Assembly (NCBI GenBank): GCA_000004985.1
Contig: GG738930.1
Length of the DNA: 64,000 bases
Direction: 5' to 3' (one strand)
DNA from: Naegleria gruberi
Lineage: Eukaryota
Notes under the pieces: generated by a model
The model's database searches: none
Seen by the model: the letters and a program-made list of their open reading frames with translations, nothing else
What the model was told of the DNA's origin: nothing
In this document: positions 37,547-63,976 of the stretch, in pieces
Position numbering within the stretch: position 1 is the stretch's first letter
Layout: each line of letters begins with the position of its first letter
Position numbers and translations under genes: made by a program

Positions 37547-39450
37547 ATGGTTGATCCTTTCACTTTCAAAGCATTCAAGATGAAATTATTCTCTATTAGA
37601 GTTCCACTCATCAACTTGCTTCCTCTCGTTGCCTTAACTATTGGACTTCATTATGGTATGGAAGATGACTTTACAACCAAATATAGTATGGTCATCTTTG
37701 CCTTGTCAATTGTTGCTGCCATGCCTCTTGCTTTCATTATTGGCCATTGTGTTGAATCTATTGTTGCTCAAACTTCATTTGTTTTTGGAGCATTGTTGAA
37801 TGCCACATTTGGTAGTATAATTGAACTGATATTATACTTCTTAGCTCTGTACAAGGGGTTGCAGGGTGTGGTTGTGAACTCTGTAAGTGGTGCAATCTTA
37901 GGTGCTGTCTTACTTACTCCAGGGCTTGCCATGGGCTGTGGAGGTCTTAGATACAGGGAACAATACTTTAATAGATATGCTGCAGGTGTTTCCAGCATCT
38001 TGTTATTCATTGCAGTTGTTGGTGCCTTCTTGCCATGTTTGTACTACTTGTCATTTGGTGTTCAGCAATTGAAATGTGGCCAATGTTTGAATGGTTTGCC
38101 ATACAATAGAACGAAGGAAGAGCCAGATATTTATTCGAAAGGACTATTATCAACTAGTACAGCACCTTATTCATCATTTTCATCCAATATTGAAGGAGTC
38201 AACAATCCTCCTGAAGCTGATTCCTCTTGGTTTGATACTGCTAAACGTAGCTTTAAGAGTTTGTATGGTAGAAAGTACAAGAGGCCCAACAAATCAGTTC
38301 ATGGAGCGAACCTTAAAGAAATTACCAAAAAGACAACAATTGGAACAATTTATGGGGCTCCTGTCGAAATTGCTCCTCGCTCCTTCTCACCAATGGATGA
38401 AATTCAAAATTATCACACCTTATTGGACTTAAAATCTGCAGATTTATTATTGACCAGTAATTATACTCCAGTGAGTAATTTCACCAACAACAGTACCTTT
38501 AGTATTCGGTGTGTTGGTTGTGATATTTCATTGGAAGACTTTGTCCATGATCCTCTCTATGAAAACAAGGTGAGACCACTTGCATTCACAGCAGCAATTA
38601 TCTTACCATTTGCCTACTTTTTCGGATTATTCTACAGTTTGAGAACCCACAGATTCTTAATGCAAAAACCACCAAAGAAGGGATTCTCTGGAGAAGGAGA
38701 ACACCAAGAAAAAGAGCCAGAAGATGACCAAGAACAAGAGGAAACAAACTCAACAAAAGGAGATCAATTAGATGATAATAAGAGTGCTAGTAAGGCGTCA
38801 ATGGAAAATCTGAAAGATTCTGACAGCGAAGGACATGACCAATCTCTAATTAAATCAGAAAAAGACGAGTCGAACAAAACAGAAGAAGAGGAGGAGGAAA
38901 GTATTTGGCCTATCTGGTTGGCTATTTTAGTTCTCATTTTGTGTACTGCAGCATATTCGTTCGTTGCAGTTATGACTTCAGCACTTGGTAAGTTTGTTTT
39001 TTACTATATTTCTCAAATATTTAAATGAAATTGTTAACTCGTTCATCAACAAATTCAGAACCTGCCTTTGAAAGTATTGGAGTTAGTGCAGAATTTGCTG
39101 GATTAACCTTCATTGCAACTGTGCCAAGTATGGGCGAATTCCTCAATGCAATTCAATTTGCCTGGATGGACAATGTTACACTTGCTTTGGAAATTGGTAA
39201 CGTTGCTGCTATTCAAATTTCTCTCCTTCAAATTCCAGCTCTTGTCTTGGGATCCTTCCTCATCTTTGAAGGAAATGAAAATATGATTTTTTCCCTTACT
39301 TTCCCTCAATTCAATTTGATGGCCATCTTCTTCTCAGTTCTCATGTTGAATTACATTAGTAGAGATGGACGTAGTAATTACTTCCACGGACTGGCTCTGG
39401 TGTTTGTCTATATTTTCATTGTGGTTGGATTTTTCTTCATTTATCTGTAA
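37547..39450 (+). CDS. Ca2+/H+ antiporter, CAX/VCX1 family; join(37547..38987, 39059..39450), intron 38988..39058
   Basis: Alpha-repeat 1 GALLNATFGSIIELILYFLALYKG, acidic cytosolic loop EEEEEES..., alpha-repeat 2 LTFIATVPSMGEFLNAIQFAWMDNVTLALEIGNVAAIQISLLQIPALVLGSF. Intron GTAAGT..AATTCAG, phase 1, removes the in-frame stop and joins ..MTSAL|EPAFESIG. Confidence 0.75.
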
Positions 39451-39751: not shown

Positions 39752-41294
39752 ATGACCCAACAACTGCACTCTTTCTCCGGAGCTCATCTCCTCCTCATAT
39801 TATTGTTAATAAATAACAGTATTATTGGCCTCGTGACTTCACTCTATGTTCCAGTTTATATCATGATGCCACTCAATACAGTGAATTCAGACGGATCGTT
39901 GAATAATCCAGAGAAAATTTACGATTACTTGCAACGAGTAAAACAAGTAGGAACAGACGGGTAAGTTTGATGATTGTGTTGAATATTTCAATTAATTTCA
40001 ATGTCATCAACTAGAATAATGATTGACGTTTGGTGGGGAATTATTGAACCATCTCCCCAACAATACAATTTCAATGCCTACATGCAACTGTTTACCATGT
40101 GTCGACAGGTGGGTTTAAAGGTGGAGCCAGTTCTTTCCTTTCATCAATGTGGAACCAATGTAGGTGATGCATGCTACATTCCATTGCCATTGTGGATTCA
40201 TCAAGTGGTGGGTGATAAAAATCCAGAGATTTTCTACACTGACCAGAATGGACACAGAGACAGGGAGTATCTTTCGCTAGGAGTTGATTCGGAAGCACTA
40301 TTTCCAAGCAATGATTCGAGAAGAAATAGAACTCCTCTCGAAATGTACGAACAAGTTATGATTCAATTCAATGCTACATTTTCTTCGTTTATTAAGGGTG
40401 GAGTAATTGATACGATTGAGATTGGTCTAGGACCTGCTGGAGAAATGAGATATCCCTCCTATCAGTTGCAAGATAATATGTGGAGTTTTCCTGGAATTGG
40501 CGCATTTCAATGGTGAGTTTTTGTTTTCAATGTTTCTGTTCAATAACACAAGAAAAATTTATGAATTATTTTCGAATACTTTCTGGATTAGTTATGATCG
40601 ATATATGCTGCAAGATTTGGCCAAGGCAGCGAGAGAAGTAGGTCATCCAGAATGGGGAAAGACAGGTCCGGCCAATGCTGGCAATTACAACTCTCGGCCA
40701 TTCGAAACTGGTTTCTTCTCTGAGAATACTTTTGATAATTATGATTCCAGTTATGGTAAATTCTTTATTGGATGGTATACAGCCAAACTTATTCAACATG
40801 GTGATGCCATTTTGGGAAGAGCTAGATCAGTATTTGGTCAATCAAGCAAATTGGCAACCAAAATAGCAGGCATTCATTGGTGGTATTATACATGGAGTCA
40901 CGCAGCTGAACTCACGGCCGGTTACTACAACACGATCCATTACAATGGTTATATTGACATTGCCAAAATGTTCAAAAAACACAATGTAGAATTCCAATTT
41001 ACATGTTTGGAAATGAAAGATCGAGAACAACCCTCCGATTGTGCATGTGGTCCAGAAGAGTTGGTTGCCCTCACACGAGAATCAGCTTTCAATTTGGGAT
41101 TGAAATATGGAGGTGAGAATGCTTTGGAAATTTTGGGAAATTACGCAGCAAATCAACAAATTGCAAAACAGTCGATTAGTGACGGCAAGTCAATTTCTAG
41201 TTTTACATTTTTGAGAATGTCAGATGAGTTGATGGCTAGTTCTCAGTATATGGGAAGTTATGCTAATCTTGTTTACGTGATGCATAATTTGTAA
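39752..41294 (+). CDS. Beta-amylase (glycoside hydrolase family 14), secreted; join(39752..39960, 40015..40512, 40592..41294)
   Basis: Signal peptide MTQQLHSFSGAHLLLILLLINNSIIGLVTS. GH14 motifs VGTDG|IMIDVWWGIIE, HQCGTNVGDACYIPLPLWI, GLGPAGEMRYPSYQ, GIGAFQ|CYDRYMLQDL. Introns 39961..40014 (GTAAGT..CTAG, phase 2) and 40513..40591 (GTGAGT..ATTAG, phase 2) restore conserved residues. Confidence 0.85.
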
Positions 41295-47213: not shown

Positions 47214-50200
47214 TCAATTATATATACTTTGAGTAATCCAAGTATCCAATGGAATATTGATAGGACTTGAATATTTATCCAATGCAATCTCTTCTCCTTT
47301 CATTAGATTTTCAGAAAAGAGAGATTTTGATTTTTCACTTCTCAGTTCCTTGTAAGTTGAGTTTGAGATGTGAACTTGATTGACCTTTCCTGTTGCTTCC
47401 ATCATTTGAGCAATTTCAACTGCAGGTCCAAATAAATCATATGTTCGTTTCACTTTTCCAACAACTGCTGCGATCACATCATTTCCAGTGTGAATTCCCA
47501 ATCGAACTGATAATAAATGATCAGTATTTGTGTAGGTAGTATATTGTTTCATGTTTCGAATCATTGCAAGACCTCCCTTTACAATGTTATCTGCATGATT
47601 GGTCTCACTCTTCGAAAGACCTGAAGCAACAAAGTAACAATCACCAATGGTCTTGATTTTCTCCAAATTCAGTTCAGTACAAACATTGTCAAAGAGTGTG
47701 AAAATGTCATGTAAGATTTTGACAACATCTTTTGGTGATTTTCTTGAAGAGAAATCAGTGAAACCAACCATATCACAATATAACATGGAGCAGGAATCGA
47801 TTGTGTCAATGACAGTCTGGCCCATGCTCAATCTTTCTGCAATACTTTTTGGGAAAATCTTTTCTGCAATTCTTGTCATGTGTTCTTCTGGTGTTGACAA
47901 TGATTTGTAATCTCTGAGATAGGCCACATAGGATGGTTTTCCATCAGTGACAATTTGTGAAATTTTAATTTCCAAAGAAATGATCTTTCCAGATTTGGTT
48001 TCTCCCTTCACTTTCCGTGTTACATCCACAACGCCATTTTCTCTACTTCGACATCTATCCAAATAACTGTCATGTTTCAACCTATCTCTACTGTTGCAAA
48101 TAATCTTGACATTTCTTCCAACAATTTCCTTTGGTTCATATCCAAATGTAGATGAAGCTGCCTTGTTAAAAACTTGAATAATTCCCTTGTCATTAATTGT
48201 AATGACTGGAATGATACTTAGATCAGTAATAGCATGTTTGAAAGAGTTTGTAACAGCTGCCTGATGTTCATTATCAATTTCCTTGAAGAATTTCAAATAG
48301 ACACAAAAGTGAATTTCTTGAAGTTTCTTAATTGGAATAATTCTTGCAGTTACAATGAAGAATTGTTTAAGCATGGTAGCTTTGGCTCTGAGATATCGTT
48401 CCTCTGAGAGTGATTTCCTTCTTGTTGCTTTTTCTTCCTCACTCAATTGACTATATGGCTTAATATCATCGAGATAGTTCTGATCAGATCCAATTTTATC
48501 TGCCTTCAGAGTGCTATTCTCTGTTGGACCCAAGAATTCATACATGGCTTGATGAAGTTCAACGGAGGCATCATCCAAGAATAATTCACTAACATGTTCT
48601 CCCATTGCACTGAATGAATAAACTCCAAATAAATCCTCTGCTTCCTTATTAAGAAACTCAATGGATCCAAGTTTGTCAAAAACAAGAACTGGAAATCCAC
48701 AATGAACAAATTGATGAACTAAATAATTCAATTGAGAGAATTCTACCTGATGTGTAAATCCAACTTCATCACAAATTTCTCTCTGACTCAATACAGTAGT
48801 ATCTGTTGTTGACCTGATTGAAATTTCACTTGTTGTATCAGAAAAGTTTCCATCAGATTCTTCCAATCGTTGCTTCAATTTTGAAAGGAATCTTTGATTA
48901 ATTGACTGTTTGTATCCTTGATCATTTCTTGACATTCCTCTATCCACAGGAGGTGGTCGTTCCTGAGTGGTGTTTGTTGTTGGTGTTGGTCTTTGTTTTG
49001 GTACAGAACTAGCTTCTCTCATATAGACACTACTCTCTCTTTGAAGTGCCCCTCTTGGAAGCTCAGAAGATCTCGTCACTACACTATTTTCTCTTTGAAG
49101 TTGACCACGAGGTCTTTCAGAAGATGACGACTGATTCCTGACAGAGTTTTCTCTCTGTAAAAATCCTCGAGGTGCTCCACTTGTCATGATGCTGTTCTCT
49201 CTCTGGAGAGTTCCTCTTGGATTTTGAGAGGCAATCATCAGACTATTCTCTCTTTGTAAAACAGAGGTTGCTCTCCTATTAGAGGAAGTCATTTCAGTAA
49301 TTGGTGTCTTTTCTGTTGTTGAGGTAAAAACTGAATTTTCTCTCTGGAGAGTTCCTCTCTTAATCATTTGTGAATTTGATGAAACCAGAGGAGGAGGAGG
49401 AGCCTGTTGTTGAAGAATATCCTTTGTAACAAGTAAGGAAGATCCCTCTCTGATGAGTATTCCTTTTGGTTTTGATGACTCGCCTGCTATTGAATTATCT
49501 CTAATCAATCGAAAACTTGGCTTTAAATCCACACCCTCCAGAATATTCCGAGAACTTGATGTATTGATTGATGAGGAATCGAGTGGAGCTGATGATACAG
49601 AGCTTGTTGGTTGCTGTTGATTTTGCTTCTTTGCCAAGAATTCTGCAAAAGCTAGTTGATGTTCATCGAGTAATTGTTGAGTGGAGGAGCTTATCTCAAC
49701 ACTGCCTCCACTACCAGAATTCATGTTATTCTTTGGAGTTGGTTTGAAATTCACACCAGAGAGAATATTCCTCGAACTCTGACTATTCAATGTGCTTTTT
49801 GGTGATGAAGAATTTTGAAGAGAAATTGCTGATGGTGAGGAAACTTCAGGTTGAGCTTCTTGTATGGTTATCTTTTTAATCATGGTACCTCCAGAGCCAG
49901 CCAGTATATTCCTCGAGCTCTGGCTATTCAATGCGCCACCTGTTGTTGCTATCTGTTCCTTCTTTTGTGCAATGTATTCCCTTAATTCCCGATCATCATC
50001 ATCATTGCTTAATTGAATTTTTCTGGATGATGAAGAGAAGCCATTGGCATTCAGTGGAATCTTTCCATTGTTTGCCATCATGATGGAAGAATTGGCAAAT
50101 ATATTTCTCGAACTCTGATGATTGAATTGTGCTGATGATTGTTGAGCTGTTGTTGGAGTTGTTTTCATCTTTTGAGCCAAAAACTCCTGTAAGGCCTTCT

Positions 50201-50733: not shown

Positions 50734-51354
50734 TTATTCAATTTTATCCTTTTCCAATACTTTTGAATGATCCAATTGTTTTGGTATTTCCAATGAATTT
50801 GAATGTTTGGAAGAAACACAACAAAATGCCCAAATTATTAATCCAAACAAGAAAATCAGCAAAATTCCAACAATTACCATCAAGAATGCAATCACTACAA
50901 ATGCAATTCCATATCCAACAAGTAAATTAAACAAAAATTCCAAATCTTCTTCTTTCCATCCCCATTCCTTTCTGAGATAAATTCCTATTCGAAAGAATTG
51001 ATCATAAATTTGTTTACGTGTTGGATCGGAGAGTGTTTCATAGGCTTTAGTCATTTGGGAATATTGTTCTGTGAGGAGGGAAAAGTCACTCCGATTAAAT
51101 CCGAATTGTGTTAGAGTTTCGTCTGATTGTGGAGATTCGTCTTGAACCAAGGATTGAATTTGTTCATATCTTTCCTTGACGGTTTTAAATTTCTCGTTAA
51201 TTTCTTCGATAGTTGCTGAACGTGTTAAATCCAACACTGAATAAAAATCGGAAGTTTCTTCTTCATCTTGTTGGAAACTAGAAGAAACTAGAACCACAAG
51301 AATTGACATGAAAATTAAAAGGATAATACCTCTCCCAACCATCATTGATGCCAT
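50734..51354 (-). CDS. Membrane protein with a signal/TM helix, a J-like domain lacking the HPD tripeptide, and a C-terminal TM helix
   Basis: MASMMVGRGIILLIFMSILVVLVSSS; DFYSVLDLTRSATIEEINEKFKTVKERYE...AYETLSDPTRKQIYD (J-domain helices II-IV, with HPD replaced by an insertion); YGIAFVVIAFLMVIVGILLIFLFGLIIWAF. Confidence 0.4.
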   Translation of the reverse strand: MASMMVGRGIILLIFMSILVVLVSSSFQQDEEETSDFYSVLDLTRSATIEEINEKFKTVKERYEQIQSLVQDESPQSDETLTQFGFNRSDFSLLTEQYSQMTKAYETLSDPTRKQIYDQFFRIGIYLRKEWGWKEEDLEFLFNLLVGYGIAFVVIAFLMVIVGILLIFLFGLIIWAFCCVSSKHSNSLEIPKQLDHSKVLEKDKIE

Positions 51355-51421: not shown

Positions 51422-52303
51422 CTAATTTGTAATCAAATCGTACAAAATGAAACCTCCAGAAATTGCCAAAGAGGTAGCAATACTAATCTTCCATCCTCTG
51501 AAAAATCCAGAAATTCCTTCTTCCTTATAAGTTTTTTGGAAACAATCCAAAGTTCCAGAAAAAGTTTTTTCCTTCTTGTCAGCTTGAACTTGAAGTTTTC
51601 TTTCGACAGTTTCCAATGGATAGCAGATGAGAAAGTTGGAAAATGAAATGAGTTGGGCGATTAGGAATTTGGCCCTGATGTCGTTTGGATATGGATTGAC
51701 ACTTGTCAAAATGTCATACATGACAAAATAGGAAAATCTGTATACGATTAATTTGATTAAGGAAGCGTCAAGACCAACAAATAGAGCAGAATAACCATTG
51801 GTTTCAATAGTCTTCTTTAAAACATCGATTGGACCTGAATATTGTCTCTTGCCAATTGTGTCAAATGCCAATTTAAATCTGACATAGGCTAATGGTCTTG
51901 TAAGAGCTTCCATGGCAGTTCCTATCAAAGCTCCACCAACTACATTTCTCAAATAGTACTTTCCCAAGTCAGTGCTTGGATCAAATTTTGGGATTATATT
52001 GAAAATCTTCATTAACATTGGAGAAAACATGCCAGTCAAGATATTTTTCAATAATTCAACAGGAAATCCTCTGAACCAACTGGAAATTCCTTGATCTTGT
52101 TTAATTTGTTGCAGGATTGTAATGGTATTCAACTGTTTATCACCAATTTGCTTGGCCAATTGATGATCGGCTTGGTGAGATTGAAGAATGCATGCGGCTG
52201 TGAAAAGAGGACAAATTGGCAATTTAACAAGTAGACTGGACGAAACCTTTGCTACAATACCGACGGTCACCTGTACGAGTGGGCTGTTGTTGCTTGTTTG
52301 CAT
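51422..52303 (-). CDS. Mitochondrial carrier family protein, ADP/ATP-carrier-like but divergent (no RRRMMM signature)
   Basis: Three carrier repeats. Motifs YSGTLDCFQKTYKEEGISGFFRGWKISIATSLAISGGFILYDLI and ALFVGLDASLIKLIVYRFSYFVMYDIL resemble the AAC motifs YTGTVDCWRKI..EGxxAFFKGAWSNVLRG and LYRGFxVSVQGIIIYRAAYFGxYD. ATG 52303. Confidence 0.6.
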   Translation of the reverse strand: MQTSNNSPLVQVTVGIVAKVSSSLLVKLPICPLFTAACILQSHQADHQLAKQIGDKQLNTITILQQIKQDQGISSWFRGFPVELLKNILTGMFSPMLMKIFNIIPKFDPSTDLGKYYLRNVVGGALIGTAMEALTRPLAYVRFKLAFDTIGKRQYSGPIDVLKKTIETNGYSALFVGLDASLIKLIVYRFSYFVMYDILTSVNPYPNDIRAKFLIAQLISFSNFLICYPLETVERKLQVQADKKEKTFSGTLDCFQKTYKEEGISGFFRGWKISIATSLAISGGFILYDLITN

Positions 52304-52322
52304 TTTTTTGTTTTGACCGACG

Positions 52323-53733
52323 ATGAAAAAAATACCTCAACAAGACCATCCTCCGGATACGGAAGGGAGTAATTTGCTTGCTGACAGGATTTTTGTGTTA
52401 GAGAGAGCAATTAAAACCTACCAAAAGGAAAACAATAATCTCCGTGACTATCTTCAACAACTTGTAAATATATGTAATGGTCACCCGTTATTGAATAATA
52501 ATAATAATAATCCCATCAAACCTGTAAATAATAATCTGATCAATACCCAACCATCAGAAAATGAAAATCTATTTATTACTAGAAATCCAGTAAATGTTAG
52601 AAATCTACCAACTAGTAGAAATTTAATTAATGGTGGAAATTTCTTGACTGAGACAGTTCAAATATGCGATAGTAATCCTAAAAATAGAACTGTCAGTTAT
52701 GCTGATATTACAAGATTAGCTCCTATTAAAGCTCAGCCATCTATTAAGAAAACAATAGCAAAACAAAAATCAACAACTAATAAGATGAAAAGAAATATGG
52801 CAACTAATACTAGACCTAACAAACGTAAATCTAATTACAATCTTAATCAAATAATTAATGTAATTTGCTACAAAGATGTTACTAACGAATTTGTTGAACA
52901 AATTACAGACCTACTCGGTGACTCTGTAATCATTAGAGTTAATCGATACTGTAATAATATTATTAATGTAATTTGCCCTGATGAAACCAGTTATAAAGAG
53001 TGTTTCAATCAATTAGTGCAAGGAAGTCATGGAGGAAAATTCATATTAGAATGCTTTCCATCTCCAGCAATCTTTAATCCTAAACCTTTAGCACTTTCAC
53101 ATACTACTTCCAGTAAAACTACTCACCTTAAAATGCTAGAAAATATTATTAGCAAATATATATTGGAAGATAATATTTCTGTTGAGGAACTCTACACTAA
53201 CTATTCTCATAACCAATTTATAATTAGAATATCATTTGAGGATCAAACTATTTGCTCTCAAATGGCACAAAATCTTGGTTTAAATCAATATAAAACTATT
53301 GAACAGATTAGAAATGAAACCAAGGAGACAACATCTCAATGCTCTATTCCAATTAATTATACTAATGATGAAATTAAAAAAGGAATTATCCAAGCATTTA
53401 CCAGAATTAATAAGACTCTCCAAGAAAACAATCTTACCATTACTGATACAACTAACCGCTCTGGAACAACTAAATACAAATTAATTAAAATTGTACACAA
53501 TGATATGGATGAAATGAATGAATTTTGCAAGAAATCTATCTCCCTAAAGGATAAACAAAGAAATCATAGTGGAAATGGATTTAAATTTAAGCCATCTATT
53601 CAAATATTGGATTCTAAAATCCAAAGGAAAAGTAAATTACACCCATATCTTCCTCAATTAGAGTTATCACCTATTGATAAACTCGTATTTATTGATGAAC
53701 CAATTAGACAACTACCAACTACTACTATTGTTA

Positions 53734-53738
<5 letters not shown>
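52323..53738 (+). CDS. Retroelement ORF1 (471 aa; Asn-rich, no recognised domain); an alternative frame continues to 54024 across the (AAT)n tract
   Basis: ATG at 52323 is 19 bp from the divergent carrier-gene ATG. Ends in the (AAT)n microsatellite. ORF 53674..54024 in another frame encodes a coiled-coil-like IDKIEKSIIDLTQQLML... and overlaps the ORF2 start by 4 nt. Confidence 0.6.
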
Positions 53739-53770
<32 letters not shown>

Positions 53771-53771
53771 T
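53734..53771 (+). repeat. (AAT)n microsatellite (~12 units) at the ORF1 stop
   Basis: taataataataataataataataataataataata. Confidence 0.9.
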
Positions 53772-54020
53772 CACAAATGCAAATAATAGAATTGATAAAA
53801 TTGAAAAAAGTATTATAGATTTAACTCAACAGCTCATGCTCACTAATAACAATATTAATAATATAGTTGAAATACTTAAACAAGCAAATATTATTAGACC
53901 TAATAATGATAACAAAATGTTAAATAATCCTAATAATAAGATGTTAGAGGATTCTAATAATAGTAATAATAATATGTTAGATGATGAATTAAGTTCATCA
54001 TCTAATCCATCTACTCTACC

Positions 54021-57000
54021 TTGAGTAGAACCACAACAAGTTTAAGGCTAGCGTGCTATAACGTAAATGGTTTATATAAGCACGCAAGCCATAAATCAGT
54101 TACTCCTGAATTGAAATCCATGTGTTTAACACATGGAATTCACTTTATGAGTTTAACTGAAACTCACTTAAATACCCCAGAACTAGAAATAGAAGTCAAA
54201 AACTCTGGATCAGGGTACCTATTATTTAACTCATTAATGAATACAAGAAAAGGTTGCAAAGGTACTGCAGCTATGCACTTTCTAAATAATTATAGAAAGC
54301 GCAATATTACAAATAATAATCTCGTACCTGGAACATTACAATGGACACGATTCGAAAGTCGTGGAATTCCAATTAACATCTTCACAATTTATCTTAGTGG
54401 AAGATAATGATTATGACAATGAGGAAGAAGCTCTTAATAGCTTTATTAATGCTGCCCTCACAATTAAAGATGAACATATTATTTTAAGTGGTGATATTAA
54501 TATTGATACAAGAAATCCCACTAGTAAAAGAGAAAAAGACTGGCTATGGATACTTAATCTACTCAGACTAACCGAATTACAAACATCCAATAATACTTGG
54601 ATAAGAAGAGTTCAATCTAATATTTTTGAATCGAAACCTGATCATGTCTTTGTGTCAAAAGACATAAGAATAGTTAAAGAAGTGCTCATGCCTCCATTAA
54701 CCACTAATGATCACATTCCTTTCTATATAGATCTCGAATTTAAATCTAACTTAACCTGGAGACCTTACTTTAGTAAGAGTAAGAGAAAGAAAATATATGA
54801 AGAAATTAATAAGTCTCCTATAGATAATTTCAAAGAGTTAAATCAAGCTATCTTGACTCAAATTAACAAATATGGCTCCAAAACTGATAGATTAGGTGTT
54901 GGTCGAATCTCAACAGCCTATAAAGAAGAAATTCAAGATTTGGAAGAAGAAATTCTTCACAAATTAAATAATGAAACTATTTCTCAATCAGAAATATCTG
55001 AATTACAAACATTACTGAAAGAAACTCATATTAAAAATGGAAAACATATTAAGGAAAAATTGATAGAAGAATTCAATGATAGAACTTCATCTAAAATGTA
55101 TCAATTTGATAGAATGGTTCATTCCAAAGAAATTAAATGGAAAGATATTAATTTCGAAGAAGAGGAAATTTTAGAATACTTTACAAATAAGTTTACCTCG
55201 ACTAATCAACTTCCAACATTCATTCCAAGTAGATCAACTATTAAAGAAGGACCAAATTGGACCAACTCGATCCATATAGAAGAATTGGAAAAAGCTTTAA
55301 AACGTATGAAATCAAATACCCCTGGTCCTGATCTAATTTCTCTGGATATTATTAAGCATCTCACAGAAAAAAATCAGAAAATTTTATTGAACGAATTTAA
55401 TAATTGCCTAAGAATAGGTGATATCTCTGAAGATTGGAAGCAAGGATGGGTGAAACTCATTCCTAAAAGAGATATCACTTCTCTCAGTGACATTCGTCCA
55501 ATCACTATTTTACCTACATTTTATAGAATTTTATTTAATATTATAGCCTTTCGACTTAGATCTTGGGCATCATCTCATATAAATATGAGACAACAAGCAT
55601 TTATTACAGACAGAAACACTTTAAATCATGGTGTCCTTCTATCATCATTAGCTATGAAAACTAAGAAAAGAACCTTCATTCTTGTTAACCTAGATATTGA
55701 AGGAGCTTATGATGCTGTAGAATTGTCAGTGATTAAAATGGCACTAGACCATTGTAAATTTCCTAACGAACTCACTCAATTTATTATTAATGCCTATAGC
55801 AACCATGAATTGAGCCTAGAAATTGATAATCATCTATCCACAAAATTTACAAAAACTCGAGGAATCCCACAAGGATGCCCATTGGCTCCTCTTATATACG
55901 ATTGTATCACACAATTAATTATTGATAAAGCAATAGATAAATGGAAAATACCAATCAAACCAAACAAACTATGTGCTAATGATATTGCACTCTGTTGCTT
56001 TGCAGATGATATGAATGTTGTCTGTGACAGATATGCCAAATACAATGACAGGCTAGATAACATACATGACTGGCTAGGTCAACTACTTTTTAAACTAAAT
56101 GCAAAGAAATCAGTTGCAACTCTACTACCTAAAACAAGCAAAGTATCTCCCAAAATTAAGGGTACACCTATTCCTAAACAAAAAAACCTTAGGATACTTG
56201 GACATTATCCATGGGATGATATTCTGGTTCGACAAGATATCCAAAACAAAATTGAAAAATTTACCAAATCTTTGAAATTTCTCCCATTATTCAAAATTGA
56301 ACCAGATAACCTTAAACAAATTATTCACGCTAAAGCTATTAGCTTATTTACACACCTTTCTAAAATTAACTTAATTCCTCTGAAAAAGGCACAACAAATT
56401 GATATAGCCATTAGAGGAGCAATTAGAAGAAAACTATATATGGACAGGAAAACACCAACCAGCTTATTCCACTTACCATTAGAAAAAGGTGGATTAGGAC
56501 TACCATCTATTGTAGAATTTTCTGAAAGAATGAACCTAAGAACCATGACCTTAATTGCTAACAGTAACAATTTACTCGTCAAGAAAGCTTTCAAACATGG
56601 TATCAAGCACTGTGAGGAAACGAAAGACAATATTTATTCGAAATGGCTACTAGTACTAAAAGAATACAACCTCACACTTAAGAAAAATGAAATGAAATTC
56701 AAGTTGAAAAAAATCAAAACAGGAAATAATTTTGATATTCACACTGACGGATCAAGACTCGAATCAAAGACTGGAATGGGGATTAATATCTATGATTGCT
56801 CCAATATGAACACTCCAGTTAGATCTTTATCCCTCCATATTAATGATCAATATTCAAATAATGTAGCTGAAATATGCTCTATTATTACAGCAGCTAAAGT
56901 TATCCCAAGAGACTCCAAGATTAAAATCCATACTGATAGTAATGTGGCAATTGAAGTTCTCAAAGAACGATATAAGGGAAACTTTCTACCACTAAAAAAA

Positions 57001-57705
57001 GCCTTCTTTAAAACCATTAAGGATAGAAAACTTGAATATGAATTCAAGAAAGTTGAAGCTCATAAGGATAAGGAAAATATCAAAGTTGATTTATTGGCAA
57101 AGAATGCAACTCTGAAACCTAAAATCTTTGATATCCGTAAACTACTCTTTAATCAATATATCCTCACAAAGAACGATATTATAATCTTTGACTATAAGAG
57201 GTTAACTACCTCACAACATTTAAGGCTAATGCTTGACAAGATAGAGAGTCACCCCAATCACATACCTAACCTAGATTGGAACTCTATCAACGTCAGCTAC
57301 CTTAAATCCCATTTGTCTCCTAAATCTAAATATTATATTTGGAGAAACTCTTCAAATGCCCACATCAATTTTGGTGAGGGTAAAAGTTTCTGTCATGATT
57401 GTAACACAGAATCTGACCTTAATCACTATATTCATGAATGCCCTGCTCTGGATAGTGCCAGATACTTTTGCTTGTCAAAAATATCTGATATTCTTGATCA
57501 GAGAGAGTGTAAACTCACTCATATTCAATTCAGACCAGAAAAGCATCACCATGTACTCTTCTTCCACCATTCTGGAACCACATTCTTCGAAGATGGATAC
57601 GTACAACAATACCCAGACATTGCAGAGAAATGGCCTGAGATCCAGGGAGCCATTTCTAACTTTGTCGGCCGCTCCTATAGATATTATTATATTGACTCAA
57701 TGTAA
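54021..57705 (+). CDS. Retroelement ORF2 (endonuclease-RT-RNase H-Zn knuckle) with a +1/-1 frameshift near 54365-54410 (defective copy or sequencing error) and no ATG at its start
   Basis: Frame A (54021..54407) encodes the endonuclease N-terminal part through IYLSGR*; frame B (54361..57705) continues ...DNDYDNEEEALNSFINAALTIKDEHIILSGDINIDT... through RT and RNase H to the stop at 57703-57705. Confidence 0.8.
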
Positions 57706-57720
57706 ATTTACAAATTCAAA

Positions 57721-57775
57721 GAGAATCTGAATAGATTCGTTATTATTGCAATAAAAGATTTTTTTGTTTTGATCG
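57721..57775 (+). repeat. Retroelement terminal module copy 1: gagaatctgaatagattcg..atttttttgttttgatcg
   Basis: Same bipartite unit recurs at 58382..58452; the second half also forms the element's 5' end (52304..52322). Confidence 0.7.
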
Positions 57776-58381
57776 TCCCTCAAAAAAATACCTCAACGTC
57801 TAGTACGTTTGTGCGGTTTTCTAGATTGACCAAGATGCAAGTAGCACAGCGCTAAACTATCGCCGTAACTTTCGGCATCGAGGTTTAGATGGATTCAAAC
57901 TATGTATTGTTTATTCTTGTCTGTAGAATAACATATAGCTATCTTCTGTCAAAGATTTAAAGCAGGTTTCTTTAGTTTAGCACGGGCAAAACAATGTAAA
58001 GATACCGAGGCGTGGAGAGTAATGATTTAATTATGAACAGAAAGGAAATTTTATAAGAATATAATCAAAGAGAATAGATATTGTAGAACGTTACGTAAGA
58101 ATTTTATTGCAGCGTAAGAGATGGTATTGGATCACCTTCTCGATATCCTTGACAGATATTTCAGATGCTTCCCCATTTAATTTTCTATTATTTCGCGATG
58201 TTTACTTTCCCTATGGTTTCCATTAGTCACGGTCTAACTCTTGATTAGTTTCCAACTATGCAACTTAAAGGCTAGGCGATAACTCCACTCCTAAAAGTCC
58301 CCGTCCAATGACGAAGCTGTGAATGAACTTTGTTCCTACGATACACACTCCAAAAGTACACCATCACAAGAGTGTTTGGTC

Positions 58382-58452
58382 GAGAATCTGAATAGATTCG
58401 AAAAATTGTAGTGTATAATAATCGGTATTATAAATTTTTTTGTTTTGATTGG
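58382..58452 (+). repeat. Retroelement terminal module copy 2 (solo, no ORFs attached): gagaatctgaatagattcg-N33-aatttttttgttttgattgg
   Basis: 19/19 match to 57721-57739 and 15/15 match to tttttttgttttgat. Confidence 0.7.
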
Positions 58453-58457
58453 TTTTT

Positions 58458-58569
58458 ACAAACAGCCCATGCATTAAATTTGTGATATTGTGAAATGATT
58501 TTGATTGAGTGGTTTCGATGAACTTTTTGCTTCTTCCAAATGAGGGTTGTTTAATGCATGGCTGTTTGT
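58458..58569. repeat. Inverted repeat / hairpin candidate: 21-nt arm acaaacagcccatgcattaaa (58458-58478) and its complement, minus 1 nt (tttaatgcatggctgtttgt, 58550-58569), with a 71-nt loop
   Basis: Direct reading: 20 of 21 positions complementary, with a single-C bulge. Confidence 0.75.
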
Positions 58570-58726
58570 AAGCAAATAAAACGATGCAACAAAGTTTCCA
58601 ATTTAGCATTTGACCTCTAGAAAATATTTAGAATTCTAGTAGTAAAAATTAATGCATAAAATAATTGATGACATAGGTATCTGCCTACTTCGTTAATGTT
58701 TTACATTTTTTTTCCAATATCGTGAA

Positions 58727-58807
58727 GCAGGGGTTCCCGAGTGGTCAAAGGGGGTAGACTCAAGTTCTACTGCGCAAGCTTCGTGGGTTCAAATCCCACC
58801 TTCTGCA
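58727..58807 (+). tRNA. tRNA-Leu (anticodon CAA), type II, 81 nt
   Basis: GCAGGGG-TT-CCCGAGTGGTCAAAGGG-G-GTAGA-CTCAAGT-TCTAC-TGCGCAAGCTTC-GTGGG-TTCAAAT-CCCAC-CTTCTGC-A. Very close to the canonical eukaryotic tRNA-Leu(CAA) D-arm and anticodon arm (GCCGAGTGGTCTAAGGCGCCAGACTCAAGTTCTGG). Long variable arm. Confidence 0.85.
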
Positions 58808-58999: not shown

Positions 59000-60279
59000 T
59001 TACTTTTTCTTTCCGCCACTCGACACATTGAATTTAAAGTGCAAAATATCACCATCCTCTACCTCGTAGGTCTTTCCCTTCTCCTTGAGCTTTCCATTAT
59101 TTTTACATTCCGATTCACTACCATATTGCTTGTAATCTTCAAAACTCATAACTTCAACACAAATAAATCCCTTTTCAAAATCACTGTGAATTTGACCAGC
59201 AGCAGCTGGGGCCTTCATTCCTCTCTTGATGGTCCATGTACGCACATGTTGACCACATGTGAAATAATTGATGAGATTAAGCATGGCATATCCAATCTTG
59301 ATAATATCTGCCATCTTGGAGTTGATTCCCTTCTTGATTAATTCTTGTCTCTTTTCTTCATCAGTCTCTTGCCATTTCTTTTCAAAGGCAGCACTGTATG
59401 GAATGACAGGTTCAGCAATTGCACTCTTAGAAGTGACATATTCTCTAATCTTAATGACATGCTCATTCTTTTCTGGATCCACAACATCTTTTGGTGTCAT
59501 ATTCACAAGATAAATCATTGGTTTAGAGGTCAACAATTGGTGAGGATTGAGTAATTCAATATCCTTACTAGCCCAATCACCAAATCTCACTTCCTTTCCT
59601 TCCTTCAACATTTCCAATGCCTTTTCGACAGCAACGAGTTCAGAAGCCTTCTCCTTCTTTTGCTTTCCCATCTTTTCGAGTGGTCCCTTAACATTTTCCA
59701 AATAGGAAATATCCTTCTTGATCAATTCCTGTTCAATGGTTTTAATATCTCTCACTGGATCAATACTACCCTCAACGTGAGTAATATTCTTCGATTCGAA
59801 TGTTCTTACCATATGGAAAATGGCATCAACAGCTCTAATATGAGAAAGGAATGCATTTCCCAATCCTTCACCTAATAATTATTTCCAATCCAATTCATGA
59901 ATTATTTGAATTTAAAAATCCACATTTTCACACACACAAAATATTCACAAAAACACTTCTCACACTCCTAAAACAAACCTTCTGAAGCATTCTTGACCAA
60001 TCCAGCAATATCAGTCACATTCAAAATAGCTGGGGCATTATCTGTTGCTCCCAAATGTTTCACCAACCAATCATATCTCTCATCTGGCACTGCAACATGA
60101 CTCGTGCTCGGATCAATGGTACAGAATGGAAAATTCTCAGCTGGCACTGAAGAATTGGTGAGAATGTTAAAGAAGGTTGATTTACCAACGTTTGGCAAAC
60201 CAACGATGCCAATATTCAAGTTGGTTCCCACTCTGCCAAAGGCAATATTCTTATTTTCTGTTGTTGTTGAAGAAGACAT
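59000..60279 (-). CDS. Obg-like ATPase 1 (OLA1/YchF family GTPase/ATPase); join(59979..60279, 59000..59871) on the minus strand, intron 59872..59978
   Basis: G1 motif [35 protein letters not shown]|G|[15 protein letters not shown] (intron GTTTGT..TTATTAG, phase 1, restores the conserved GxGLGNxFL), TGS region [19 protein letters not shown]...[18 protein letters not shown]. Confidence 0.9.
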
Positions 60280-60480: not shown

Positions 60481-60554
60481 TGCCTCCCTTGGGAATCGAA
60501 CCCAAGACCTCTGTCTTACTAGGACAGCGCTACTGCCAACTGAGCTAGGAAGGC
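60481..60554 (-). tRNA. tRNA-Thr (anticodon AGU), 74 nt
   Basis: GCCTTCC-TA-GCTCAGTTGGCAGTAGC-G-CTGTC-CTAGTAA-GACAG-AGGTC-TTGGG-TTCGATT-CCCAA-GGGAGGC-A. Perfect anticodon stem. Anticodon arm is near-identical to the animal tRNA-Thr(AGU) (TGTCTAGTAAACAGG). Confidence 0.85.
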
Positions 60555-61983: not shown

Positions 61984-63976
61984 CTTCTGGTGTTGACAAT
62001 GATTTGTAATCTCTAATATAAGCAATGTATGAAGATTTACCATCTTTTAGAATGTGGGATACTCTGATTTCTACCGAGATGATCTTGCCTGACTTGGTTT
62101 CTCCCTTCACTTTCTTTACCATATTGAGAGTATTCTTATCTTTGGTTTTACATTTTTCCAAATAGCTGTCATGTTTGAGTCTATCCTTCTTATTACAAAT
62201 AATTTTGACATTTCTTCCAACAACTTCTTTAGCTTCGAAACCAAAAGTGGATGAGGCAGCCTTGTTAAAAACTTGAATAATTCCCTTGTCATTGATTGTA
62301 ATAACTGGAATAGTAATCATTTCTGTTACTGCTTGATTCAGTGAGTTGGTCATTTGTGAATATTTGCCATTTTCTGCTTGTTGAGCAAACCTCATGTATA
62401 TACAAAAGTGAGTTTCTTGTAATTTTGATATTGGGATAATCTTGGCGGATACTGAAAAGAATTGCTTGATTGTTGTTGCTTTGGCTCTCAAAGTTCTTAA
62501 CTGTGAAAGGGCCCTTCTTCTCTCCAGTTTTTCTTCCTCACTGATTTGATTGTAAGGTCGAATATCATCGAGATAGTTCTGGTCTGAACCAATTTTATCT
62601 GCCTTCAGAGTGCTATTCTCAGTTGGACCCAAGAATTCATAAATTGCCTGATGTAGTTCAACAGAAGCATCATCCAAAAACAATTCACTCACATGTTCCC
62701 CAAGAGCACTGAATGAAAAGACTCCAAATAAATCCTCGGCTTCCTTATTCAAATATTCTATTGAGCCAAGTTTGTCAAAAACAAGAACTGGAAATCCACA
62801 AGTCATGAATTGAGACACCAAATGATTCAACTGTACAAATTCTACCTGATGTGTAAATCCAACTTCTTCATTAATTTCTCTATCACTCAGTAGGGCAGTT
62901 TCTGTCGACCTCACAGACATAACAGAAACTTCGCTCACTGTATCAGGAAAATCATCAAATCCTTCATTCTTCGTTTTCATTTTGGAAAGGAATCTCTGAT
63001 TAATTGACTGTTTGTAGCCTTGATCGTTTCTTGACATTCCTCTTTCGAGTGGAGGTCTTGCTCTGGGCACAGATTGTGATCCCTCCCTCATCATTAAACT
63101 GTTTTCTCTCTGTAGTGGCCCTCTCTTTGTTGGAACATCAGACAAGGGTTTATCAGATAGCTCATATTCATTATTCTTCCTAGTAATAAAACTACTATTC
63201 TCTCTTTGTAACATTCCTCTCCTAGGAGCAGATGGTGCTGTTGTCATTGTAGAATTACCTCTCAATAGAGGAGGTGGTCTCGATAGTGTGCCATCGTTAT
63301 TCGTCAGCAGAGAAGAACCTTCCCTCCTTAACATTCCTCTTGGTTTTTGGGAGATAGTAGAATTTTCTCTTGTCAGTTTTGGAGCTACTCTCAACGATGA
63401 AGAAACTCCAACTTTAAGCATTGCAGAGGTATCCAAACCTTCAAATATGTTCCTAGAACTTGCTGTATTTTTCGACGATACCTCATACATGGATTGTTTT
63501 TTAGACATGAACTCATTAAGTGCTTTTTGATCTTCGTCTTCCTTCTCCTTTCTAGCAGAGGCAGGTGTTTCTGTTATTGTAAATGGAGCAAGAAAGTCTG
63601 AACCACCTACTCCATCATTATTTGGAATCCGTGTTGGTACTTTAGGTTTTACTGGACTAAACCCTACCAATACATTTCTCGAACTTTGAGTATTGAAAGC
63701 TCCAGGAGACGGTTTTGACTTTTTTGCTTGGAGAAACTCTTGGAGAGCCTTCTCATCCTCATCTTCATCATCCTTATTGTTTTGTTTTGTTGGGGAGGTT
63801 AGAGGTTTTTTAGGAGAAGTACTTTTAGAAAGAGCAGAAGCATCAAACGAAGCAAATATATTCCTCGAACTCTGATGATTAAAATTGGAAGAGGGTGAAT
63901 GAAGGTTTGCTGTCTTCTTCTTGGCTAGAAATTCCTGTAGAGCCTTATCGTCATCATCGTCATCATAATTTGTCAT
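61984..63976 (-). CDS. PAS-PAS-(cyclase) paralogue, 3'-truncated by the assembly gap; the N-terminal region carries 3 copies of the acidic-ALQEFLAKK...QSSRNI module
   Basis: ATG 63976 (MTNYDDDDDDKALQEFLAKKK). Same domain order and many identical blocks versus 47214..50231 (CGFPVLVFDKLGSIE[F/Y]LNKEAEDLFGV[Y/F]SFSA[M/L]GEHVSELFLDDASVELHQA[M/I]YEFLGPTENSTLKADKIGSDQNYLDDI; IPVITINDKGIIQVFNKAASSTFG[Y/F]E[P/A]KE[I/V]VGRNVKIICN). DNA about 85% identical over long stretches. Confidence 0.7.

What the first reader, a model, noticed from the sequence alone, without database searches (positions are those of the whole stretch)
51422..57775. Non-LTR retroelement begins 1 bp from the start codon of a divergent mitochondrial-carrier gene
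The carrier gene's ATG (52303-52301, minus strand) and the element's first base (52304) are adjacent, and ORF1's ATG is only 19 bp further. The carrier gene therefore has no native 5' flank left. It is expressed from element-derived sequence (TRE-type elements are known to carry bidirectional promoter activity in their terminal modules), or it is silenced, or the insertion is very recent. The carrier itself is unusual: it is AAC-like but lacks RRRMMM. The J-like gene lies only 67 bp downstream on the same strand, an unusually tight tandem pair.
Basis: partly seen in the sequence, partly recalled or inferred. Interest (0 to 1): 0.5.

Follow-up and report, generated by a model that had tools for sequence, protein, structure and literature searches.

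The report
Naegleria LINE inserted at a start codon
A defective jumping gene (LINE) of the amoeba Naegleria gruberi sits head-to-head against the start codon of a mitochondrial-carrier gene because this LINE family inserts at runs of T, and the A-runs in front of Naegleria start codons supply exactly that target.

Summary
The window is Naegleria gruberi, not Dictyostelium, so the "TRE-type" reading fails. The adjacency is real. But 52303-52319 is a 17-bp target-site duplication (TSD), TTTTTTTGTTTTGAYYG, not element sequence. It recurs at 57759-57775 and 58435-58451.

Two elements lie in tandem between the three copies:
- E1 (52320-57758) is a LINE with ORF1 and an endonuclease/RT/RNase H ORF2. 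It is disabled by two frameshifts.
- E2 (57776-58434) is a 659-bp non-autonomous relative that shares E1's 5' 16 nt and its 3' motif.

Four related copies in N. fowleri and N. lovaniensis carry their own locus-specific 12-16-bp TSDs. Every one starts with T5-T9, including two 5'-truncated copies. None has a poly(A) tail or a nearby tRNA gene. In two of them the left TSD again abuts the ATG of a divergent host gene.

About 18-30% of A7+ runs in the window directly precede an ATG. T-run targeting therefore explains the adjacency without any start-codon-specific mechanism.

The carrier keeps 17 native bases upstream of its coding sequence. The rest of its former flank now starts at 58452. The carrier is AAC-like without RRRMMM, a trait shared by its relatives. 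Whether it is still expressed is untested.

The parts
50734..51354 (-). J-like gene (206 aa) with a partial DnaJ match, no HPD motif, and hydrophobic N- and C-terminal segments. It lies 67 bp downstream of the carrier.
   Evidence: the absence of HPD was read from the translation
51422..52303 (-). AAC-like mitochondrial carrier gene (293 aa). It is 100% identical to the N. gruberi protein annotated 'mitochondrial ADP/ATP-transporter'. The N-terminus is complete. The RRRMMM position reads ERKLQV.
52303..52319 (.). TSD copy 1, TTTTTTTGTTTTGACCG. This is native target DNA. Its first T is the complement of the A of the carrier's ATG.
   Evidence: by analogy with the TSDs of L010-L013
52320..57758 (+). 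E1, a near full-length but defective LINE (5439 bp). It has a 3-nt leader, ORF1, ORF2 (AP-endonuclease, RT, RNase H, C-terminal Cys/His motif), a short 3' UTR and no poly(A) tail.
52323..53738 (+). E1 ORF1 (471 aa). It is cut short by a frameshift at the (AAT)n tract. The conserved C-terminal coiled-coil continues in the +1 frame through 53739-54024.
54021..57705 (+). E1 ORF2. Its start is TTG overlapping the ORF1 stop (TTGA), where relatives have ATG or ATGA. A 1-nt insertion at about 54405 splits the endonuclease domain (54021-54407) from the remainder (54406-57705).
57721..57739 (+). Conserved 3' UTR motif GAGAATCTGAATAGATTCG (6-bp hairpin). It is identical in E1, E2 and the Logan contig L001. 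An AATAAA follows at 57750-57755.
57759..57775 (.). TSD copy 2, TTTTTTTGTTTTGATCG, shared between E1 (as its right TSD) and E2 (as its left TSD).
57776..58434 (+). E2, a 659-bp non-autonomous element. It shares with E1 the 5' sequence AAAAAAATACCTCAAC and the 3' motif (58382-58400). Its interior is unrelated to E1, has no ORF and matches no Rfam family.
58435..58451 (.). TSD copy 3, TTTTTTTGTTTTGATTG.
58452..58726 (.). The carrier's former upstream flank, displaced by 6.1 kb. It contains a roughly 115-bp unit with 22-nt terminal inverted repeats (58456-58572).
   Evidence: reconstruction by removing E1, E2 and two TSD copies is an inference
58727..58807 (+). tRNA-Leu(CAA). It is an incidental neighbour, not the target.

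Best explanation
A Naegleria-specific LINE family that encodes an AP-type endonuclease inserts at oligo(dT) runs. The first nick falls at the 5' edge of a T5-T9 run, read on the element's sense strand. That is the 3' edge of an A-run on the other strand. A second nick 12-17 bp further on produces a TSD that always begins with the T-run.

Naegleria genes very often carry an A-run directly in front of the ATG. A large share of the available targets are therefore start-codon leaders. At such a site the element must lie head-to-head with the host gene, and the nick falls inside or right next to the ATG. The start codon survives only because the TSD restores it.

At this locus the site was hit twice, once by the autonomous-type E1 and once by the non-autonomous E2. 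That gives the order TSD-E1-TSD-E2-TSD.

Shown:
- the three TSD copies and the element boundaries;
- the T-run rule at six insertion events;
- 5' truncation, and the absence of poly(A) tails;
- adjacency to a start codon at 3 of 5 loci;
- the frequency of A-run leaders.

Inferred:
- AATAAA lies 0-11 nt before each element end, so transcripts probably run into the flanking T-run.
- The resulting U-run could pair with the oligo(dA) primer at a new target and set the precise 3' junction.
- The carrier is probably still functional, because its ORF is intact and the residues conserved among its relatives are kept. It would then be transcribed from the retained 17-bp leader plus sequence inside E1.
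For: - The 17-mer occurs three times, at 52303, 57759 and 58435. No other copy exists in the 64 kb, and no shuffle out of 100 gave 3 matches.
- E1 and E2 share their 5' and 3' end sequences but not their interiors.
- Related copies have locus-specific flanking repeats that all start with a T-run:
  - L010 (N. lovaniensis): T7GTTCTATT, 15/15 identical.
  - L011 (N. fowleri): T9GATATTA, 16/16 identical.
  - L012 (N. fowleri): T7CATGC.
  - L013 (N. fowleri): T5-6(C/A)GTGAAC.
- L012 and L010 begin at positions 1176 and 807 of the full-length L013 element, yet they still carry the left repeat. The repeats are therefore TSDs and not element termini.
- The 3' ends of L001 and L002 are also followed by T8 and T7.
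- In L011 and L012 the left TSD abuts the CAT of the annotated start of a divergent gene. These are a TELO2-like protein of 965 aa and a protein of 1923 aa.
- Background in the window: 40 A7+/T7+ runs lie outside the element. Twelve are followed by TG, and 7 are the first ATG of an ORF of at least 100 aa. Seven of 27 long ORFs have at least 5 A's before the ATG.
- A random oriented position starts a T7+ run with probability of about 3.5e-4 (my arithmetic).
- The carrier's N-terminus aligns with the starts of its relatives.
Against: - Only five loci (six insertion events) could be examined. The rest of the N. gruberi genome was not retrievable.
- Three of five insertions at a start codon is only mildly more than T-run targeting predicts (binomial P about 0.04-0.16 for p = 0.175-0.30, my arithmetic). 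A more specific attraction to start sites is neither needed nor excluded.
- The N. gruberi and N. lovaniensis TSDs share T7GTT(T/C)T. This could hint at some sequence preference, or an element-templated contribution, beyond the T-run.
- The U-run annealing step and the continued expression of the carrier are inferences with no transcript data behind them.
- The host-gene starts in L011 and L012 are automatic annotations.
Confidence: 0.78

Rival explanations
1. The element starts at 52304 and is a TRE-like, tRNA-gene-targeted retroelement. Its terminal modules are repeated at both ends and act as a bidirectional promoter for the carrier.
For: A 40-nt stretch at 52302-52341 recurs at 57758-57797 with 88% identity. 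A tRNA-Leu gene lies downstream at 58727.
Against: - The organism is Naegleria.
- The 40-nt repeat breaks down into a TSD plus the 5' end of a second element. The 17-mer alone recurs a third time at 58435.
- The distance to the tRNA gene is 275 bp, against roughly 50 bp for TRE5 (from memory).
- Four related insertions have no tRNA gene within the fetched loci.
- There is no oligo(A) tail.
- Element leaders are only 3-18 nt long.
Confidence: 0.03
2. The 17-mer is element-encoded. It would be a short terminal direct repeat, or the element's true 3' tail, rather than duplicated target DNA. In that case the carrier's ATG really does touch element sequence.
For: The T-run follows every 3' end examined. 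The N. gruberi and N. lovaniensis repeats share T7GTT(T/C)T. The ends of contig L001 would join into a similar junction.
Against: - Beyond the T-run the repeats differ from locus to locus: GATATTA, CATGC, GTGAAC.
- Copies truncated at different internal positions still carry the left repeat.
- The sequence to the left of each left repeat shows no element 3' UTR.
- The T-run part of the right-hand copy could still be templated by the RNA. That is compatible with the best explanation.
Confidence: 0.07
3. The family homes specifically to start-codon leaders or promoters, for example by recognising the A-run+ATG context or factors bound at promoters. It would not target just any T-run. It would also supply promoter activity that keeps the host genes expressed.
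For: - Three of five loci lie exactly at an ATG, and the other two lie about 50 and 110 bp from an annotated ATG.
- One host gene is a TELO2-like gene with an intact ORF. TELO2 is essential in other eukaryotes (my knowledge).
- The carrier ORF is intact.
Against: - The excess over the T-run background is weak (P about 0.04-0.16).
- L012 is 5'-truncated, so no element 5' end is available there to serve as a promoter, yet it occupies the same kind of site.
- There are no expression data.
Confidence: 0.12

Closest known systems
L1-type (APE-encoding) LINEs, e.g. human L1
   Same: - Two ORFs, with ORF2 carrying an AP-endonuclease and an RT.
- Variable-length TSDs of 12-17 bp and frequent 5' truncation.
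- A homopolymer target consistent with primer-template annealing.
- A non-autonomous partner that shares the element ends (E2).
   Different: - The target polarity is mirrored. The TSD begins with oligo(T) on the element's sense strand, so the primer ends in oligo(dA). In L1 the nick is at TTTT/AA and the primer is oligo(dT) (from memory).
- There is no poly(A) tail.
- An RNase H domain is present.
- ORF1 has no recognised L1 ORF1 domains.
- The leader is only 3-18 nt long.
- The clade was not determined. RT similarity to solved R2 structures (1e-17) and L1 ORF2p (1e-14) is equally remote.
Dictyostelium TRE5/TRE3 tRNA-gene-targeted retroelements
   Same: - A LINE living in a compact, gene-dense protist genome.
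- Insertion into narrow intergenic niches close to genes.
- Repeated hits at one site, giving tandem elements.
- Internally deleted or non-autonomous derivatives.
   Different: - It is not tRNA-linked.
- It has no A/B/C module architecture and no oligo(A) tail.
- The host lineage is different (Heterolobosea).
- The target here is a sequence feature, a T-run, rather than a position relative to a Pol III gene.
Site-specific LINEs whose read-through 3' flank anneals to the target (e.g. R1), recalled from memory
   Same: The proposed use of co-transcribed downstream target sequence, here the U-run, to fix a precise 3' junction without a poly(A) tail.
   Different: The target here is a generic homopolymer found at thousands of sites, not one unique rDNA sequence. 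The annealing step is inferred here, not shown.
Mitochondrial ADP/ATP carriers (SLC25A4-6, yeast Aac2/3)
   Same: The carrier has three Mito_carr repeats. AACs are by far its best solved-structure matches.
   Different: - RRRMMM is replaced by ERKLQV.
- The first repeat has lost the charged residues of the P-x-[DE]-x-x-[KR] signature.
- The carrier groups with relatives that share (R/K)(R/K)(L/M)Q.QA(D/E)K, including the N. gruberi paralog NAEGRDRAFT_67085 at 41% identity.
- Its substrate is unknown.

Membership tests
Dictyostelium TRE retroelements | Integration at a fixed short distance from tRNA genes (about 50 bp upstream for TRE5, about 100 bp downstream for TRE3) | tested here: not met
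   The distal TSD ends 275 bp upstream of tRNA-Leu. There is no tRNA gene in any of L010-L013.
Dictyostelium TRE retroelements | Modular A/B/C untranslated regions and an oligo(A) tail | tested here: not met
   The leader is 3-18 nt and the 3' UTR is 15-70 nt. Elements end in A and are followed directly by the TSD. The apparent terminal repeat is a TSD plus the 5' end of E2.
Dictyostelium TRE retroelements | Host is a dictyostelid | tested here: not met
   The carrier is 100% identical to a Naegleria gruberi protein. The ORF2 relatives that carry a species name are all from Naegleria; the other close relatives come from unnamed environmental contigs.
APE-type LINE (non-LTR retrotransposon) | ORF2 with an AP-endonuclease domain followed by a reverse transcriptase | tested here: met
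   RVT_1 scores 4e-28 and RNase_H 4e-11. The endonuclease N-terminus aligns with L001 ORF2 at 63% identity. Exo_endo_phos_2 is on record for the homologues.
APE-type LINE (non-LTR retrotransposon) | Variable-length TSDs and 5'-truncated copies | tested here: met
   TSDs are 12-17 bp. L012 and L010 are truncated at positions 1176 and 807 of the full-length element.
APE-type LINE (non-LTR retrotransposon) | 3' poly(A) or simple-repeat tail | tested here: not met
   All eight 3' ends read AATAAA (TATAAA in E2) + 0-11 nt, ending in A, then a T-run. None has an A tail.
L1-like target-site rule | Insertion at TT/AAAA, so that the TSD begins with an A-rich sequence after the tail | tested here: not met
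   The TSDs begin with T5-T9 on the element's sense strand.
ADP/ATP carrier (AAC) | Three mitochondrial-carrier repeats, with closest similarity to AACs | tested here: met
   Mito_carr matches in 3 stretches at 1.8e-34. The top four PDB matches are all AACs, at 1e-27 to 3e-25.
ADP/ATP carrier (AAC) | RRRMMM signature in the third repeat | tested here: not met
   The position aligns as ERKLQV. The relatives in alignment A2 also lack the signature.
J-domain protein | HPD tripeptide between helices II and III | tested here: not met
   Only the C-terminal third of the DnaJ profile matches. No HPD occurs in the translation.

The most novel reading that the evidence does not exclude
This Naegleria LINE family has made the oligo(A) leader at the start-codon junction of protein-coding genes its dedicated niche. 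It inserts head-to-head at position -1 of host genes. The TSD preserves the ATG and the minimal leader. Either the element supplies antisense promoter activity, or Naegleria core promoters need almost no upstream DNA. Under either option even genes such as the TELO2-like gene would stay expressed. This would be a safe-haven strategy in a very compact genome, functionally parallel to tRNA-gene targeting in Dictyostelium but aimed at Pol II gene starts.
Probability: 0.15. Interest if true: 0.7.

Novelty: new variant of a known kind. Interest (0 to 1): 0.45.

Why it matters
The curious adjacency becomes a rule that can be tested. A LINE family in one of the most TE-poor and compact eukaryotic genera uses a target polarity opposite to L1 and carries no poly(A) tail. 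Because Naegleria leaders are A-runs, it lands again and again on start codons.

If the neighbouring host genes are still expressed, these insertions are natural promoter-replacement experiments. They would show how little upstream DNA a Naegleria gene needs, or that the LINE carries antisense promoter activity.

There is also a practical lesson for annotation. Here the 17 bp next to the ATG are host sequence and not element sequence. The short non-autonomous partner E2 is easy to miss.

Tried and rejected
- Exact-protein look-ups for N. gruberi proteins (the carrier, P0001, P0013, P0015) found nothing on record. Other N. gruberi copies and a possible empty allele were therefore out of reach.
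- The metagenome scan for the 3' motif GAGAATCTGAATAGATTCG gave six hits. All are chance matches in unrelated sequence.
- The ORF1 profile search returned no hits.
- ORF2 profile scans of genome contigs and viral contigs found no relatives.
- L002 and L009, both environmental copies, are truncated or decayed. They gave no usable 5' junction.
- Rfam found nothing inside E2.
- I first considered that the 16-mer might be the element's 5' end, or a 3' tail shared by tandem elements. I rejected both after seeing locus-specific repeats around 5'-truncated copies.
- I tried to order the E1 and E2 insertions from the TSD mutations. Both orders need two substitutions, so the order is undetermined. My earlier notebook claim that E2 came first is withdrawn.
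- The bacterial promoter scan is irrelevant to a eukaryote.
- Hairpin energies are not better than those of shuffled sequences, except in L011.
- Literature searches found no description of Naegleria LINE target sites.
Full report
**What is at the coordinates**

The minus-strand ORF at 51422-52303 encodes a 293-aa protein with three mitochondrial-carrier repeats (Pfam Mito_carr, 1.8e-34). It is 100% identical to the NCBI protein 'mitochondrial ADP/ATP-transporter [Naegleria gruberi]'. The window is therefore N. gruberi, with about 34% G+C. It is not a dictyostelid.

On the plus strand, an ORF1 starts at 52323. It is followed by an ORF2 with reverse transcriptase and RNase H domains. The N-terminal AP-endonuclease part of ORF2 aligns with a related ORF2, L001/P0012, at 63% identity. 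The rest aligns at 51%. The ATG is at 52303-52301, the ORF1 ATG lies 19 bp beyond 52304, and the J-like ORF (50734-51354) lies 67 bp downstream of the carrier stop.

The 17-mer TTTTTTTGTTTTGAYYG occurs three times, at 52303-52319, 57759-57775 and 58435-58451. It occurs nowhere else in the 64 kb. The 16-mer core gave 3 matches against 0.42 expected, and no shuffle out of 100 reached 3.

Copies 1 and 2 bracket the long element E1 (52320-57758). Copies 2 and 3 bracket a 659-bp element, E2 (57776-58434). E2 shares two things with E1:
- a 5' end in which six unrelated bases are followed by the shared 16-mer AAAAAAATACCTCAAC;
- the 3' motif GAGAATCTGAATAGATTCG, followed by an AATAAA-like hexamer and a terminal A.

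The interior of E2 is unrelated to E1. It has no ORF and no Rfam match. The 40-nt 'terminal repeat' seen by the repeat finder is thus one 17-mer plus the common 5' end of two related elements.

**Is the 17-mer a target-site duplication or element sequence?**

Other N. gruberi copies could not be fetched. I therefore used relatives from N. lovaniensis (L010) and N. fowleri (L011, L012, L013). Each is flanked by a direct repeat of its own:

| Locus | Species | Flanking repeat | Match |
|---|---|---|---|
| L010 | N. lovaniensis | T7GTTCTATT | 15/15 |
| L011 | N. fowleri | T9GATATTA | 16/16 |
| L012 | N. fowleri | T7CATGC | 12-14 bp |
| L013 | N. fowleri | T5-6(C/A)GTGAAC | 12-13 bp |

The sequence after the T-run differs from locus to locus. 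L012 and L010 start at positions 1176 and 807 of the full-length L013 element. In both, the similarity begins exactly after the left repeat and ends exactly before the right T-run. Copies truncated at different internal points cannot carry the element's own 5' terminus. The repeats are therefore target-site duplications.

Two further 3' ends, L001 and L002, are also followed by T8 and T7. None of the eight 3' ends has an A tail. All read AATAAA (TATAAA in E2), then 0-11 nt ending in A, then the T-run.

**Consequence for the finding**

52303-52319 is native carrier-side DNA. Its first T is the complement of the A of the carrier's ATG, so the first nick fell within or beside the start codon. The ATG survives because the duplication restores it.

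Removing E1, E2 and two TSD copies rebuilds the earlier state. In that state the carrier ATG was followed by one 17-mer and then by the sequence from 58452. tRNA-Leu(CAA) lay 292 bp from the ATG. This reconstruction is an inference.

The site was hit twice. The TSD substitutions (GACCG, GATCG, GATTG) fit either order of insertion equally well.

**Why next to a start codon?**

In L011 the left TSD abuts the CAT of the annotated start of a divergent TELO2-like gene. In L012 it abuts the annotated start of a divergent 1923-aa gene. Three of the five loci therefore repeat the configuration seen in the window. The other two lie about 50 bp upstream of the mitofilin ATG (L010) and about 110 bp from a small annotated gene (L013).

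The background explains most of this:
- The window holds 40 A7+/T7+ runs outside the element.
- Twelve of these are followed by TG.
- Seven are the first ATG of an ORF of at least 100 aa.
- Seven of 27 long ORFs, including the carrier and the J-like gene, have at least 5 A's directly before the ATG.

If any T7+ run is a target, the chance of landing at an ATG is 0.175-0.30 per event. Three or more out of five then has P of about 0.04-0.16 (my arithmetic). By contrast, a random oriented position starts a T7+ run with probability of about 3.5e-4. The T-run rule itself is therefore far beyond chance.

An A-run+ATG site fixes the orientation. The T-run must lie on the element's sense strand, so the element is divergent from the gene.

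**Mechanism**

Shown: the TSD always starts with the T-run, so the primer strand ends in oligo(dA). There is no poly(A) tail, and the 3' ends are precise.

Inferred: the polyadenylation hexamer sits only 0-11 nt before the element's end. Transcripts should therefore extend into the donor's flanking T-run. The resulting U-run could pair with the oligo(dA) primer at a new T-run target. This would explain the target rule, the missing A tail and the exact 3' junction. It would also re-create a T-run downstream of every new copy.

The 19-nt 3' motif is identical in E1, E2 and L001, although the E1 and L001 ORF2 proteins are only 51% identical. It forms a 6-bp hairpin in the predicted folds, but the folding energies are no better than those of shuffled sequences. 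It is a candidate RT recognition element, and that too is an inference.

**State of E1 and of the carrier**

E1 is defective in three ways:
- ORF1 stops at the (AAT)n tract. Its conserved coiled-coil C-terminus continues in the +1 frame.
- ORF2 has a 1-nt insertion at about 54405, inside the endonuclease domain.
- ORF2 begins with TTG where relatives have ATG.

Each TSD pair differs at 1 of 17 positions. A very recent insertion is therefore unlikely, although the frameshifts could already have been present in the RNA that was copied.

The carrier ORF is intact and its N-terminus aligns with the starts of its relatives. It keeps the residues conserved in a small group of relatives. The nearest is the N. 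gruberi paralog NAEGRDRAFT_67085, at 41% identity. That group shares (R/K)(R/K)(L/M)Q.QA(D/E)K where AACs have RRRMMM. The missing signature is thus a trait of the group and not a sign of decay.

These observations lean towards a gene that still functions, but they do not prove that it is expressed. N. gruberi TEs are reported to be methylated and heterochromatic, and methylated genes there are mostly silent (PMC12344493). Silencing therefore remains possible.

**Comparison with known systems**

The element is an APE-type LINE with an RNase H domain and belongs to a Naegleria-specific family. The ORF2 relatives that carry a species name are all from Naegleria, at 36-75% identity. A few equally close relatives come from unnamed environmental contigs, and the next hits fall below 30%. 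Its clade was not determined.

It fails every defining test for Dictyostelium TREs:
- It has no link to tRNA genes.
- It has no modular UTRs and no A tail.
- Its host is not a dictyostelid.

It behaves like L1 in its use of a homopolymer target, its variable TSDs, its 5' truncation and its short non-autonomous partner. The target polarity, however, is the mirror image of L1.

I found no description of this target preference in the searchable literature. A recent preprint puts the TE content of Naegleria genomes at 0.13-0.28% (bioRxiv 10.64898/2026.06.24.734286). Curated repeat databases could not be consulted.

**Verdict**

The TRE interpretation is wrong. The adjacency to the start codon is a predictable result of a LINE family that targets T-runs in a genome whose start codons are preceded by A-runs. 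That rule, together with the double insertion and its three TSD copies, is the result worth keeping. How the neighbouring genes are transcribed remains the open question.

Noticed in passing
window 57776-58434: A 659-bp non-autonomous element (E2) carries the LINE's 5' 16 nt and its 3' motif, but its interior is unrelated to E1. It has no ORF and no Rfam match. A weak resemblance to A and B boxes around 57848 and 57893 was seen by eye only.
   Followed up: partly
window 47885-48954 and 61984-63056: A segmental duplication with constant 14.1-kb spacing and 77-89% identity. It corresponds to two paralogous cyclase-like genes (large minus-strand ORFs). Together they bracket the J-like gene, carrier, LINE, tRNA-Leu, GTPase and tRNA-Thr block.
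   Followed up: no
window 58456-58572: A roughly 115-bp unit with 22-nt near-perfect terminal inverted repeats (TTACAAACAGCCCATGCATTAAA ... TTTAATGCATGGCTGTTTGTAA). It lies between the distal TSD and tRNA-Leu. It could be a MITE or a regulatory palindrome. Fold z-score is -2.2.
   Followed up: partly
L012 4563-8341 versus L013 4384-9622: Two N. fowleri copies at different loci are 97-99.5% identical. One is 5'-truncated and has an internal deletion. The family was therefore active recently in N. fowleri.
   Followed up: partly
L010 about 5886, L012 about 4886, L013 about 5886; window 54021-54024: In the N. fowleri and N. lovaniensis subfamily the ORF1 stop and the ORF2 start overlap as ATGA, which suggests termination-reinitiation. 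The window copy has TTGA at the same place.
   Followed up: no
L011 2370-2401; window 52301-52325: The host-gene ATG and the LINE ORF1 ATG face away from each other only 28 bp apart in L011 and 19 bp apart in the window. If both are transcribed, each promoter must lie inside the other's coding sequence, or the leaders must be extremely short.
   Followed up: no
window 36050-37531 and 37547-39028: Two same-strand ORFs of exactly 493 aa each are separated by only 15 bp. They may be tandem paralogs. The pair at 40001-40516 and 40530-41294 (13-bp gap) may be one gene with an intron or a frameshift.
   Followed up: no
window 50734-51354: The J-like protein has a signal-peptide-like N-terminus and C-terminal hydrophobic segments. 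A 30-residue insert sits where HPD would be. Only the last third of the J-domain profile matches.
   Followed up: partly
window 59000-59863 and 59968-60279: A YchF/OLA1-like GTPase, judged by eye from the translations and not scanned against family libraries, appears as two minus-strand ORFs, presumably two exons. tRNA-Thr(AGT) follows at 60481-60554.
   Followed up: no
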